The notes under the pieces were generated by a model. That model made no database searches. It had not been told where the DNA came from and worked only from the letters and a program-made list of their open reading frames with translations. From the human T2T-CHM13v2.0 reference genome, Homo sapiens: 64,000 nucleotides of DNA. Below are positions 12,711 to 42,844 of the stretch, in pieces. The number at the start of each line of letters is the position of its first letter. The stretch's first letter is position 1. The stretch lies in NCBI RefSeq assembly GCF_009914755.1, contig NC_060936.1. One strand, 5' to 3'. The position numbers were made by a program, and so were the translations under genes.

Positions 12711-12868
12711 CACTTCTCCTCTAGTGGCAGATGTGATCCAATCCCTGCAGGCAGAAATTCTTGTGAAGGTGGTGCAGTGGGATGGCAGTGACTGCTGCCT
12801 CAGCTCACAATGTCAACAAGCTTGTACTTCCCATGCCGGGCACATTGCGGTGGTCTTCCAGAATCTCC
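12711..12868 (-). pseudogene. OVCH1: Decayed OVCH1 terminal exon: protease domain 3, catalytic-Ser exon
   Basis: Pyrimidine tract + ttgcag| then GDSGRPPQCARHGKYKLVDIVS*GSSHCHPTAP[fs]FTRISACRDWITSATRGEV; TGA at 12802-12800 replaces the Trp of VSWG. Confidence 0.93.
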
Positions 12869-13274
12869 CTGCAACCAGCAAAAAGAGAAGTTCTCCCAAA
12901 TGCCTGATTCCTGGCCGACATTAACCCCAACTGCAGAGGATGGTCAGGCAGGGCACAGGTTGTTCTCTTTATCTCGCTGATTTCTGCTCACAACCTAATA
13001 GAAAACTATGGCCACTCAGGTAGTGGGCTGATGCGACAGATCTCTGAACTGGATTAAAATCTATACCTTCAAGGAGAGACTGAAAGATAAGTTAGTGTAA
13101 ATTCACTTAATGCTGACTGTAGACTCTGCCATGAAGAAACTTTCAAGCATCTATATAAATGGCCAGGTGATGGTTTTCAGTGACATGAAAACTCCTTTAT
13201 GTTTTCAGTGTTACTAGAAGTAGGTGCATTAAGCCACCTAATTCAGCTATGCAGCTGAATCATAAGAAATGATC

Positions 13275-13582
13275 AGCCGGGCGCGGTGGCTCACGCCTGT
13301 AATTCCAGCACTTTGGGAGGCTGAGGCAGGCGAACCACGAGGTCAGAAGTTCGAGACCAGTCTGGCCAACATAGGGAAACCCCGTTGCTACTAAAAATGC
13401 AAAAAATTAGCTGGGTGTGGTGGTGTGTGCCTGTAATTCCAGCTACTCGGGACGCTGAGGCAGGAGAATCACGTGAACCCAGGAGGCGGAGGTTGCAGTG
13501 AGCTGAGATGGCACCATTGTACTCCAGCCCAGGAGATAGTGCAACACTCCACCTCAAAAAAAAAAAAAAAAAAAAAAAAAAA
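13275..13582 (+). mobile_element. AluS
   Basis: Dimeric Alu, polyA, TSD AAGAAATGATCA. Confidence 0.95.
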
Positions 13583-13870
13583 CAAAAGAAATGATCATGT
13601 TTGTAGGTCAAAAACCATTGAATATCAGCAATTACACATAATTCATCCAAGTATTGACTAATTCCTTTTGAGAACTGAGTTCACTTCAACTATCAAATTA
13701 CTAATTACGGTTCATTTGTTTTTAAGGTAACTTAACAATGTATTTATTCTTCTTGCCTTTCTTTTTAAAACTACCATGCATCTATACCTCTTTATGAATC
13801 AGCAAATGCCAGTTTGTGAGACATACTAAAAAGAAAACTCCCAGACTCATCAATGCAATCCTTGAATTAC

Positions 13871-13989
13871 CATGCAGGAAGATGATCCTGCAGCTCTTCT
13901 GAATATATTGGTGTTTTTAAATATCCATACCCTGGTAGCTTTGCCAAGAGGTACCTTTGCCTGTTATACCATGTTAGAAAATTCATCCT
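13871..13989 (-). pseudogene. OVCH1: Decayed OVCH1 exon: protease domain 3, S1-pocket exon
   Basis: ag|xDEFSNMV*QAKVPL[del/fs]QSYQGMDI[fs]KNTNIFRRAAGSSSCM|gt; phase 1 to 0, joins GDSG; TAA at 13966-13964. Confidence 0.9.
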
Positions 13990-15048
13990 CTAGCACAAAA
14001 AGAATAAAAATACATATAAACCTAGGCAAATGCTTTTAAAGGCTAAAACACGGATTGCAGACTCTTAGGGGTAAATCCCACCATTTTTCTCTCTGACACT
14101 GTAATGATGTTGTTAGGTGATTTGTAAAGACCTAATATTATTCTACTTTAGCTTATACAACAGAAACTCCAAAAACTGTTTTGTATGGATTCTTTTTATC
14201 TTCACTACGGTTCTAGGATGAGAGAAAAATAATATCACTTCATAGAAGGAAAAAGTTTAGAACCAAATCAGTTTTTGATGATGCAATCAGTACAATTCAT
14301 TTTTAAATGTTAAGCCTATACTTGATTCCCTTGGTTTCATTGTGATCTCATTCTTTTGACTTGACTTTGCCGAATAAACATAATGTTTAGAGGTTGACAA
14401 TGGAAACGACATTCTGATTTACTCTAGTCTATTGGATATTTGTAACTTGTTAACTCAGTTGTACAATACAGTAGGAGTGAAACCAAACTCATGGGTTGAC
14501 CTTCACATGGGCTAGTTATTTTCACATAATCTTTTCCACCCATTTACCATTCATACCAATCCATCATTTCAGAAAAATGCCTCACATCATTAGAAATTGG
14601 CTGATACCTTCAAGTATGAGTTTTCACTGTTATAAAAACAATTGTGTATGTGTGTCTGAGTTTGTGTATGTTTAGAGTACAATTGGAGAGTAATTACATA
14701 GAAATGAGACTTACAAATATTAGGTAATAAAATCACTAGATATTCTTCAATACATGTTTTTATAAGTATCAATAAACTGGTATTCATGAATATAATGACC
14801 TAAAACCCAGGAAGTCACCTTTATTTTATTTATTTATTTATTTTTATTATTATACTTTAAGTTTTAGGGTACATGTGCACAATGTGCAGGTTAGTTACAT
14901 ACGTATACATGTGCCATGCTGCTGCGCTGCACCCACTAACTTGTCATCTAGCATTAGGTATATCTCCCAATGCTATCCCTCCCCTCCAACCCCACAACAG
15001 TCCCCAGAGTGTGATGTTCCCCTTCCTGTGTCCATGTGTTCTCATTGT

Positions 15049-41673: not shown

Positions 41674-41894
41674 GTAACTTAATATACTATATATTTTTAT
41701 ATGATTATTGACGATCTCCATTACTAGACTGTAAGTGCTACTATGGCAGGGACTGTCTTGTTCATTGCTCAATCTTCATTTCTTTGAATAGTGCCTGGCA
41801 TATTCCTACAACAATTTGTTGGTGGTCTGAATAATTCTCGGTTTAAATGTGAGATTTTTTTCTATTTTATGTTAGTCCCTTATGATATACTTAC

Positions 41895-41957
41895 ATAACT
41901 TAAATTTGATGCAAATTTCTTCTGTTTTCTTTTTCCAACACTTCTTACATTATCATA
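41895..41957 (-). CDS. OVCH1: Candidate substitute OVCH1 exon (YDNVRSVGKRKQKKFASNLSY)
   Basis: ttttag|63 nt open, phase 0-0|gtaagt; no CUB or protease similarity; matches my recollection of the annotated human C-terminal tail. Confidence 0.5.
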
Positions 41958-42201
41958 CTAAAATTAAGTAAAATGTTTTTAATGGAAATGCCTCCCAAAC
42001 TGTATTTCAATTAACATGTCCAAAAAAAAAGAAACAAAAGGTAAAATGGGCAGTAAAGCAAAGCCTGCTGGCTGATTAAAAAAAAATGAGTGTGAATGGA
42101 TTAATCTTAAGTACTGAGGGAATTCTAATAAATATTCAGAATTAAATATAATGGCAAATGTTTCTCTATGATATCCGATTTCTATAATTTGCAATAGTTA
42201 C

Positions 42202-42282
42202 CCGTTTTCATAATGCTATTAGTGCCTTTGCTCAAACCACAGGATGACGGACAAAGCGTATCTTTCAAAAATCTGGTTACAA
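42202..42282 (-). pseudogene. OVCH1: Probable orphaned CUB4-CUB5 linker exon
   Basis: ttag|VVTRFLKDTLCPSSCGLSKGTNSIMKT G|gtaac; 81 nt, open, phase 1-1, correct position; no domain motif to confirm it. Confidence 0.45.
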
Positions 42283-42734
42283 CTAACACATATGAACTAA
42301 TCAAACAAGTAAAGAAAAAAAGGACAAATTATTCTTGATATTAGTACATTCAGGAAGTGAATTCCAAAAGAGAAAAGCTACTTGAAACTTCTTTGCTAGG
42401 GATAAAAATTTCTGACTGTATTGTCGCAATATTCCAAGTATCCAGAAAAATAAAGAGTATGCTTAGGTGTTAAAAAAAATCTGCTCAATCTTGTACTTCA
42501 TACAGGTTTAGCATGAGGCCTCCACAGATTACAGAAGTCAGAATTTTAAATATTATATTTTTGTCCTTTCCTAAAGCTGACAAATGAAACAAAGAATTAC
42601 AATCTATTAATTTACTTATTCGATAACAAAATTTTCCCAATAAAGCACAATAAATTGAACAAAAACATACATATGGAACAAAAGAAGCACAAGAAATTGA
42701 ACAAAAACAACAAATAGGGAAAAAATGGACTTAC

Positions 42735-42844
42735 CAGAAATACAAAAAGAGTCTCTCAGAGAAAACTCTTCATGGCCAAAATGACATTATATGTGAAAAT
42801 CGTAAGAGATTTTCATAAAAGTGAATCTCTTTCACATAATTTAC
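42735..42844 (-). pseudogene. OVCH1: Decayed OVCH1 exon: CUB4 C-terminal half
   Basis: ag|GKLCERDSLL*KSLTIFTYN[fs]HFGHEEFSLRDSFCIS G|gtaagt; TGA 42815-42813; 110 nt. Confidence 0.8.

What the first reader, a model, noticed from the sequence alone, without database searches (positions are those of the whole stretch)
12711..42844. Fossil 3' half of OVCH1: a nine-exon chain for CUB4 end, CUB5 and a third protease domain, dead behind a still-open gene
Seen: nine minus-strand exon remnants (42735-42844, 42202-42282, 37699-37922, 31278-31449, 29192-29458, 27097-27256, 21141-21236, 13871-13989, 12711-12868), in domain order. Intron phases chain consistently from the last intact exon (1,1,1,1,1,2,1,1,0) once single frameshifts are corrected. 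Eight of the nine carry stops and/or frameshifts, while the six exons upstream are open. Known: Xenopus pro-ovochymase is a polyprotease with three S1 protease domains and five CUB domains, and the C-terminal protease is ovochymase itself. Inference: this lineage kept the 5' part of the polyprotein and lost the namesake enzyme, a partial (domain-level) pseudogenisation that the ORF track mostly misses. I cannot tell whether this is already published.
Basis: partly seen in the sequence, partly recalled or inferred. Interest (0 to 1): 0.92.

Follow-up and report, generated by a model that had tools for sequence, protein, structure and literature searches.

The report
Dead third protease module of human OVCH1
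Downstream of where human OVCH1 now stops lie the decayed exons for its ancestral last CUB domains and third (chymotrypsin-like) protease domain, so primates kept the front of this egg-coat polyprotease gene and lost its namesake enzyme.

Summary
A complete 1465-aa whale OVCH1 aligns collinearly to them (tblastn E from 3e-25 to 0.085). Lion, buffalo and turtle orthologues give the same lesions: 4 in-frame stops, 8 frameshifts, one AG>AA acceptor, two deletions of about 5 codons, and catalytic His replaced by Arg.

The ninth claimed exon, 42202-42282, scores at background. A better candidate for that small linker exon is 39112-39162.

Intact orthologues carry 3 Trypsin and 5 CUB domains (lion, turtle). 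No primate protein in the database holds CUB5 plus protease 3.

At columns invariant in 17 tetrapods the fossil exons keep 56 of 77 residues and the open exons 21 of 22. This implies about 0.12 neutral substitutions per site since constraint was lost, an old event that is probably stem-primate or earlier.

The open reading frame now ends in a non-ancestral terminal exon (47995-48886) in a former intron.

This is a clean domain-level pseudogenisation. I found no paper on it in six full-text searches. It is a new member of a known kind and of moderate interest.

The parts
63390..63546 (-). Open exon: last exon of protease domain 2 (GDSGGP...WIQSKING)
   Evidence: translation, 85% identity to whale 702-755. 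39 of 43 mammal-invariant and 14 of 14 deep-invariant residues kept.
62982..63074 (-). Open linker exon
   Evidence: 63% identity to whale 757-791.
59485..59709 (-). Open exon, CUB3 first part
   Evidence: 76% identity, E 3e-31; query.
53420..53545 (-). Open exon, CUB3 second part
   Evidence: 65% identity.
52287..52422 (-). Open exon, CUB4 first part
   Evidence: 64% identity; 22 of 30 mammal-invariant residues kept.
51503..51642 (-). Open exon, CUB4 second part; last ancestral coding exon still used; followed by a phase-1 intron
   Evidence: 69% identity; 23 of 34 mammal-invariant residues kept.
47995..48886 (-). Non-ancestral terminal exon of the selected transcript. It adds 'GEC' and a stop (coding 48876-48886). 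An AATAAA lies about 20 nt before the 3' end.
   Evidence: Hub annotation. No counterpart in long orthologues. A macaque isoform reads the same exon in another frame.
42735..42844 (-). Fossil exon 1: end of CUB4. Stop at 42813-42815, frameshift near 42769-42772, about 5 codons deleted; AG/GT flanks kept.
   Evidence: 26 of 42 identical to whale.
39112..39162 (-). Candidate fossil exon 2: small CUB4-CUB5 linker exon (51 nt, phase 1 to 1, open). Acceptor reads AT instead of AG; donor GT.
   Evidence: Best match in the intron, and in the whole window for the hippo and buffalo peptides. Moderate support only.
42202..42282 (-).
   Evidence: score 11-12; 75-87 of 94 intron tiles score as high or higher. 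No tblastn hit.
37699..37922 (-). Fossil exon 3: CUB5 first part. Tyr codon turned to stop at 37852-37854, frameshift near 37736-37742, one conserved Cys lost.
   Evidence: E 9e-24; 55 of 75.
31278..31449 (-). Fossil exon 4: CUB5 second part. Frameshift near 31366-31372. Boundaries identical to an exon of other RefSeq transcripts.
   Evidence: 44 of 58; hub annotation.
29192..29458 (-). Fossil exon 5: activation site and start of protease 3. Frameshift near 29263. VVGG>LIGS, HYCGG>HYYRG, AAHC>AVRS (catalytic His to Arg, two Cys lost).
   Evidence: E 3e-25; 55 of 89.
27097..27256 (-). Fossil exon 6: protease 3, holds the Asp102 region (DDL kept). Frameshift near 27128; acceptor AA instead of AG.
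   Evidence: 37 of 53.
21141..21236 (-). Fossil exon 7: protease 3 (CMTAGWG). Frameshift near 21187-21190, and a second near 21218 that the phase chain requires. Boundaries identical to an exon of other RefSeq transcripts.
   Evidence: hub annotation.
13871..13989 (-). Fossil exon 8: protease 3. Gln codon turned to stop at 13964-13966, about 5 codons deleted including a Cys, ICGG>IFRR. The S1-pocket stretch AAGSSSCM is kept.
   Evidence: (26 of 44).
12711..12868 (-). Fossil exon 9: last protease 3 exon. GDSGGP>GDSGRP, Trp codon turned to stop at 12800-12802, frameshift near 12768. Its acceptor is shared with the RefSeq terminal exon 10652-12868.
   Evidence: E 4e-14; 38 of 54; hub annotation.

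Best explanation
The stretch from about 12.7 to 42.8 kb holds the in-situ relic of the ancestral 3' third of OVCH1. It comprises the last exon of CUB4, a small linker exon, two CUB5 exons and five exons of a third, chymotrypsin-like S1 protease domain. In an ancestor of living primates the coding region was cut short after the second CUB4 exon. Today the reading frame ends in a non-ancestral terminal exon with its own poly(A) signal (47995-48886) inside the former CUB4 intron. The downstream exons then drifted without constraint and gathered stops, frameshifts, a dead acceptor and loss of catalytic and disulfide residues. The two N-terminal protease domains and CUB1-3 stayed in an open frame.

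Shown: the exons, their order and phases, the lesions, intact one-chain orthologues elsewhere, and relaxed constraint.

Inferred: the age of the loss. I also cannot say whether the switch of terminal exon or the first disabling mutation came first.
For: - Collinear tblastn hits of whale residues 1000-1464 on eight segments.
- The same lesions against four references that include a turtle, so they lie on the human lineage.
- 14 of 15 splice dinucleotides canonical, and frames that chain as phases 1,1,1,1,1,2,1,1,0.
- Pfam finds 3 Trypsin + 5 CUB in lion P0050 and turtle P0052, and 2 Trypsin + 2 CUB in bonobo P0001 at E<=1e-5.
- All 11 primate entries among the 48 hits are 626-1128 aa.
- 0 primates among the 107 hits, and 0 among the 120 listed of 275 hits. 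Laurasiatherians, turtles, birds and amphibians cover the region fully.
- Deep-invariant columns: fossil exons keep 56 of 77, open exons 21 of 22 (Fisher p 0.022). Leave-one-out lion, buffalo and whale keep 77/77, 77/77 and 77/78.
- ML divergence at those codons is 0.123 (0.076-0.186) in the fossil exons and 0.020 in the open ones.
- There are 12 stops and frameshifts in 1306 nt of fossil exons and none in 877 nt of open exons. About 8.1 would be expected there, P 3e-4.
- Other RefSeq transcripts still use 31278-31449, 21141-21236 and the acceptor at 12868 (hub annotation).
Against: - Pfam finds neither Trypsin nor CUB in any of the 10 in-path stop-free pieces at E<=1. The domain assignment therefore rests on orthology alone.
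- The small linker exon is only moderately supported.
- No primate genomic DNA could be examined. 'All primates' rests on predicted proteins, and some Ensembl models may be projected from human.
- In several mammals the 3' half is annotated as a separate 'chymotrypsinogen-like' model.
- The open CUB4 exons have diverged as much as the fossil exons, so the border between 'alive' and 'dead' is less sharp than the reading frame suggests.
Confidence: 0.93

Rival explanations
1. The remnants are a unitary pseudogene of a separate downstream gene (a stand-alone 'chymotrypsinogen-like' protease with one CUB domain), not the tail of OVCH1.
For:: about 15 orthologous-level hits of 144-686 aa are annotated apart from OVCH1. 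Examples are jaguarundi 444 aa with CUB+Trypsin, Bos 407 aa, sperm whale 249 aa and muntjac 308 aa. Some lie on the same contig as a short OVCH1 model.
Against: - Of the 10 such models printed, 6 begin at a Met inside OVCH1 sequence (MMLIFTYNVS, MTQKPSQ, MEGSERN, MGTRLPIN, MNFKTDES twice).
- One more is a partial model that starts inside OVCH1 sequence without a Met.
- Three carry short or unrelated leaders.
- By eye none of the 10 shows a signal-peptide-like N-terminus.
- One-chain models with 3 Trypsin + 5 CUB exist in lion and turtle and in many tetrapods.
- The phase-1 intron after 51503-51642 matches the phase of fossil exon 1.
Confidence: 0.04
2. Some of the remnants still code, in other frames or as parts of alternative isoforms, and are kept by selection.
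For: Three remnants coincide with exons of other RefSeq transcripts (hub annotation). 14 of 15 splice dinucleotides are intact. 27097-27256 and the 88-aa frame of 29192-29458 are open.
Against: - Every verified exon needs a stop or frameshift correction to follow the orthologues.
- 21 of 77 deep-invariant residues are changed.
- The tail of the bonobo 1128-aa isoform maps to other, non-ancestral exons (47461-47583, 41916-41957, 35728-35799).
- Keeping 29 of 30 splice-site bases is not unusual at d=0.12 (hand binomial, P about 0.12).
Confidence: 0.02
3. Chance similarity or an assembly artefact.
For: Two segments have weak stand-alone E-values (0.029 and 0.085).
Against: Six segments have E of 8e-5 or lower, down to 3e-25. 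All are in order, on one strand and with matching phases. The window holds no N.
Confidence: 0.01

Closest known systems
Full-length vertebrate OVCH1 / Xenopus pro-ovochymase polyprotease (Lindsay, Yang & Hedrick 1999, recalled; seen here only in the reference lists)
   Same: Same gene. The exon order, phases and sequence of the fossil exons match the C-terminal CUB4-CUB5-protease 3 of whale, buffalo, lion and turtle OVCH1. Those proteins have 3 Trypsin + 5 CUB.
   Different: In human the last 9 exons are broken, and the protein ends inside CUB4 in a new terminal exon.
Chymotrypsin / chymotrypsinogen (S1 family)
   Same: After OVCH1 itself, the intact third domain is closest to chymotrypsins (39-45% identity over 53-65% of the query). 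By my own reading, the Ser-Ser before Cys191 in 'GSSSCMGDSGGP' fits a chymotrypsin-like pocket. That stretch survives in the human relic.
   Different: The relic lacks the catalytic His and several disulfide Cys, and it has stops and frameshifts.
TMPRSS9 / polyserase-1 and other polyserases
   Same: Several S1 domains in one chain. These were the next hits after OVCH1 (32-36% identity). PMC1435904 cites ovochymase in its reference list.
   Different: They have a membrane anchor and no CUB domains. They are not orthologous.
Unitary and partial pseudogenes of primates (relic exons left in place after loss of function)
   Same: In-situ exons with stops and frameshifts, intact orthologues in other mammals, no retroposition.
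   Different: Only the 3' module is dead. The 5' two-protease part keeps an open frame, and some dead exons are still spliced in annotated transcripts.

Membership tests
OVCH1 orthologous 3' exons | Collinear alignment of a long orthologue's C-terminus to the segments, on one strand | tested here: met
   whale 1000-1464 in order; buffalo, lion, turtle.
OVCH1 orthologous 3' exons | Intron phases continuous with the last open exon | tested here: met
   (877 nt, giving phase 1 after 51503-51642); the frames give 1,1,1,1,1,2,1,1,0.
OVCH1 orthologous 3' exons | All nine ancestral exons located | tested here: inconclusive
   Eight are located. The small linker exon is not at 42202-42282. The candidate 39112-39162 has moderate support.
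Peptidase S1 (Pfam Trypsin PF00089) | Profile match | tested here: not met
   0 of 6 in-path stop-free pieces from the protease-3 exons match Trypsin at E<=1. The orthologous whale region is one of 3 Trypsin stretches.
Peptidase S1 (Pfam Trypsin PF00089) | Catalytic triad His-Asp-Ser in an open frame | tested here: not met
   His to Arg (whale 1276). The Asp region DDL and the Ser of GDSG are kept. 2 stops and 6 frameshifts lie within the five protease exons.
CUB domain (PF00431) | Profile match and conserved cysteines | tested here: not met
   0 of 4 in-path CUB5 pieces match. Whale 1069-1168, to which fossil exons 3 and 4 align, is Pfam CUB 9-108. Cys1087 to Tyr and Cys1136 to His.
Partial (domain-level) pseudogene | Disabling lesions confined to one module, the rest open and constrained | tested here: met
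   12 stops and frameshifts in 1306 nt against 0 in 877 nt (P 3e-4). Deep-invariant residues kept: 56 of 77 against 21 of 22. Caveat: the CUB4 stub looks relaxed.
Partial (domain-level) pseudogene | Lesions shared across primates (age of the loss) | not testable with these tools
   No primate genomic DNA is available. There is only indirect support: no primate protein holds the region, and d is about 0.12.

The most novel reading that the evidence does not exclude
The chymotrypsin-like 'ovochymase' module was lost at or before the base of primates, some 60-100 Myr ago. The two upstream protease domains stayed under selection. OVCH1 is also being dismantled module by module in several placental lineages independently: short or split models in toothed whales, canids and equids, and a drifting CUB4 stub in human. 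The dead exons persist as spliced, non-coding 3' parts of transcripts.
Probability: 0.35. Interest if true: 0.5.

Novelty: new member of a known kind. Interest (0 to 1): 0.35.

Why it matters
Human 'ovochymase 1' lacks the enzyme it is named after. Work that carries function over from frog ovochymase (egg activation, vitelline-envelope proteolysis) to the human gene should take this into account.

The relic gives a dated, lesion-by-lesion marker for tracing when the egg-coat protease repertoire changed in mammals.

It also shows dead exons that are still spliced, which matters for annotating NMD and 3'UTR isoforms.

It does not open a long-standing question. Comparison of orthologues would show the same to anyone who looked.

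Tried and rejected
- **Pfam on 15 stop-free pieces** (10 in-path, 5 off-frame controls) gave no Trypsin or CUB hit. It gave only two weak unrelated hits, LPD18 at E 0.026 and EGF_Teneurin at E 0.1.
- **A separate downstream gene** was considered and rejected.
- **Splice-site retention as a sign of selection** was rejected. 29 of 30 bases kept is compatible with drift (hand calculation).
- **Lindsay 1999 (PMC18020) and Puente & Lopez-Otin 2004 (PMC383305)** are not held.
- **Six literature searches** found no paper on an OVCH1 3' truncation: OVCH1+pseudogene, 13 papers; ovochymase+polyprotease, 6; OVCH1+protease domain+CUB, 0; ovochymase-1+gene loss, 1; OVCH1+OVCH2+evolution, 2; OVCH1 alone, 76 papers of which 25 were listed. 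For these I saw only listings and abstract starts, plus passages of four papers. I consulted no supplements.
- **Dating from shared primate lesions** could not be done, because no primate DNA is available here.
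Full report
**What is there.** The window is the 3' part of human OVCH1 on the minus strand (hub annotation). The annotated coding exons inside it translate without a stop. They are:
- the last exon of protease domain 2 (63390-63546, 'GDSGGP...')
- a linker (62982-63074)
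- CUB3 (59485-59709 and 53420-53545)
- the first two exons of CUB4 (52287-52422 and 51503-51642)

The frame then closes after 'GEC' in a terminal exon (47995-48886). An AATAAA lies about 20 nt before that exon's annotated 3' end. The protein therefore stops in the middle of CUB4.

**Finding long orthologues.** A search with the CUB3 exon for longer proteins returned 48 OVCH1 proteins among 54 candidates.
- The 11 primate entries are 626-1128 aa: bonobo, red colobus, macaque, owl monkey, marmoset, two squirrel monkey entries, two capuchin species, titi and sifaka.
- Several other mammals reach 1300-1465 aa.

A second search with whale P0017 residues 1058-1465 (CUB5 + protease 3) gave 107 hits at E<=1e-20.
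- Cetartiodactyls, lion (P0050, 1517 aa), turtles, birds, amphibians and squamates cover the region fully or almost fully.
- There was no primate and no rodent OVCH1 among the hits.

Pfam counts 3 Trypsin + 5 CUB stretches in lion and turtle, 3 + 4 in the whale isoform, and 2 + 2 in bonobo at E<=1e-5.

**The remnants.** tblastn of the whale protein against the window places residues 1000-1464 in order on the minus strand, on eight of the nine claimed segments. E-values run from 3e-25 (29164-29459) to 0.085 (21136-21177).

I wrote a frameshift-aware protein-to-DNA alignment and ran it against whale, buffalo, lion and turtle. All four references give the same lesions, so the lesions belong to the human lineage.

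| Exon | Coordinates | Lesions |
|---|---|---|
| E1 | 42735-42844 | stop 42813-42815; frameshift near 42769-42772; about 5 codons lost |
| E3 | 37699-37922 | Tyr codon to stop at 37852-37854; frameshift near 37736-37742 |
| E4 | 31278-31449 | frameshift near 31366-31372 |
| E5 | 29192-29458 | frameshift near 29263; VVGG>LIGS; HYCGG>HYYRG; AAHC>AVRS |
| E6 | 27097-27256 | frameshift near 27128 |
| E7 | 21141-21236 | frameshift near 21187-21190; a second near 21218 that the phases require |
| E8 | 13871-13989 | Gln codon to stop at 13964-13966; about 5 codons lost |
| E9 | 12711-12868 | GDSGGP>GDSGRP; Trp codon to stop at 12800-12802; frameshift near 12768 |

- In total there are 4 stops and 8 frameshifts in 1306 nt.
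- Identity to whale along the corrected path is 298 of 447 residues (summed).
- Fourteen of 15 splice dinucleotides are canonical. The acceptor of E6 reads AA.
That chain needs the frameshift in E6 and two frameshifts in E7. So the exon that looks open (27097-27256) is broken too.

**The misplaced exon.** 42202-42282 has no tblastn hit.
- Linker peptides of hippo, buffalo, whale, lion and pig score 11-12 there. Between 75 and 87 of 94 tiles of the same intron score as high or higher.
- The intron maximum for all five peptides (32-39) is at 39112-39162. For the hippo and buffalo peptides it is also the top score in the whole window in all six frames.
- That segment is 51 nt long, runs from phase 1 to phase 1 and is open. 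It reads 'SMRGKIKYNHSLGRLL' against hippo 'SMRGKIKVNDKEDKG'. A polypyrimidine tract lies upstream, AT stands in place of the AG acceptor, and the donor is GT.
- I regard this as the likely relic of the small linker exon. Support is only moderate.

**Is it more than chance, and is it one gene?** The order, strand, phases and E-values rule out chance. The third search, restricted to shorter proteins, gave 275 hits of which 120 were listed. It shows that in jaguarundi, cattle, pangolin, porpoise, muntjac, sperm whale, humpback dolphin, raccoon dog, donkey, meerkat, panda and dog the 3' half is annotated as a separate 'chymotrypsinogen-like' model.

I printed 10 of these models.
- Six begin at a methionine inside OVCH1 sequence (for example MMLIFTYNVS..., MTQKPSQ..., MEGSERN..., MNFKTDES...).
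- One is a partial model that starts inside OVCH1 sequence without a Met.
- Three have short or unrelated leaders.
- By eye, none has a signal-peptide-like start.

Together with the one-chain 3+5 models, this speaks for split gene models and not for a separate gene. No primate appears among the listed hits.

**Constraint.** I aligned 17 tetrapod orthologues and mapped the human codons onto them.
- At columns invariant in all 17, the fossil exons keep 56 of 77 residues. The 21 changes include 7 Cys (5 substituted, 2 deleted), the catalytic His, and two codons turned to stops.
- The open exons keep 21 of 22 (Fisher p 0.022).
- Left out in turn, lion, buffalo and whale keep 77/77, 77/77 and 77/78.
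- A simple likelihood estimate gives 0.123 substitutions per non-synonymous site at these codons (about 0.076-0.186) in the fossil exons, and 0.020 in the open ones.
- At the fossil density of stops and frameshifts, the 877 nt of open exons should carry about 8 of them. They carry none (P 3e-4).
- Per exon, the last exon of protease 2 keeps 39 of 43 mammal-invariant residues. The two open CUB4 exons keep only 45 of 64, the same fraction as the fossil exons (233 of 335).
- So the stub of CUB4 in the human protein seems to drift like the dead exons. The numbers are small, and the reference set is laurasiatherian only.

**Age (inference).** A neutral divergence of about 0.12 per site is of the order I recall for the whole human branch since the early placental radiation. 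With long-term primate rates of roughly 1-1.5e-9 per site per year (recalled), it points to some 60-100 Myr, with wide error. This fits the absence of the region from every primate protein found, sifaka included.

**How the truncation works now.**
- The terminal exon 47995-48886 has no counterpart in the long orthologues. A macaque isoform reads it in another frame.
- The longer tail of the bonobo 1128-aa isoform comes from three further non-ancestral exons (47461-47583, 41916-41957, 35728-35799). These are interleaved with the fossil exons.
- Other RefSeq transcripts still use 31278-31449, 21141-21236 and the acceptor at 12868 (hub annotation). Some dead exons are therefore still spliced, necessarily as non-coding or NMD-prone sequence.

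**Comparison with what is known.**
- By sequence the intact third domain is nearest to chymotrypsins (39-45% identity). This fits the name ovochymase.
- The account of Xenopus pro-ovochymase as a polyprotease whose C-terminal domain is ovochymase is my recollection of Lindsay et al. 1999. That paper is not held. I saw it only in reference lists.
- Passages of PMC6839265 call chicken OVCH1 a secreted vitelline-membrane protease.
- PMC3868571 lists OVCH1 among genes with homozygous loss-of-function variants in its cohort.
- None of six full-text searches turned up a paper on the loss of the 3' module. The library lacks most subscription journals, and I read no supplements. Prior notice, for instance by the curators of the protease catalogues, cannot be excluded.

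**Verdict.** This is a real, clean case of domain-level pseudogenisation. One exon is corrected and one 'intact' exon is shown to be broken. It is a new member of a known kind and of moderate interest (0.35).

Noticed in passing
window 47461-47583, 41916-41957, 35728-35799 (minus): The C-terminal tail of the bonobo 1128-aa OVCH1 isoform maps to three exons with no counterpart in long orthologues. They are interleaved with the fossil exons. Owl monkey shares all three and sifaka shares the last one, so these tails may be old in primates. Alternatively they may be repeat-derived or projected annotation.
   Followed up: partly
window 52287-52422 and 51503-51642 (minus): The two open CUB4 exons keep only 45 of 64 mammal-invariant residues, the same fraction as the dead exons (233 of 335). 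The last exon of protease 2 keeps 39 of 43. The truncated CUB4 stub may be a functionless tail.
   Followed up: partly
proteins P0139-P0152, P0005, P0010, P0015 (other mammals; not in the window): In toothed whales, canids, ruminants, pangolin and donkey the 3' protease is annotated apart from a short OVCH1. The donkey model P0149 ends in a peptide that resembles the shifted frame of the last exon (RFWRTTAV...). This may be parallel decay or merely split models.
   Followed up: partly
protein P0001 (bonobo), residues about 305-345; outside the window: The first half of CUB1 is replaced by an unrelated stretch in the bonobo model, whereas the macaque model has both. Pfam finds only 2 CUB stretches at E<=1e-5. 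The 'open' part of hominid OVCH1 may have lost more than the 3' module.
   Followed up: no
window 14814-18392 (minus): Long stop-free frames (594, 298 and 295 aa at 15049-16833, 16834-17730 and 17894-18781) lie inside a masked repeat in the intron between fossil exons 7 and 8. This looks like a LINE insertion but was not examined.
   Followed up: no
window 12690-12715 (minus): After the relic of the last residues (…TRGEV) the corrected frame runs on (RSLKEQC) where whale OVCH1 stops. Buffalo also has a longer tail, so the ancestral stop position is uncertain.
   Followed up: no
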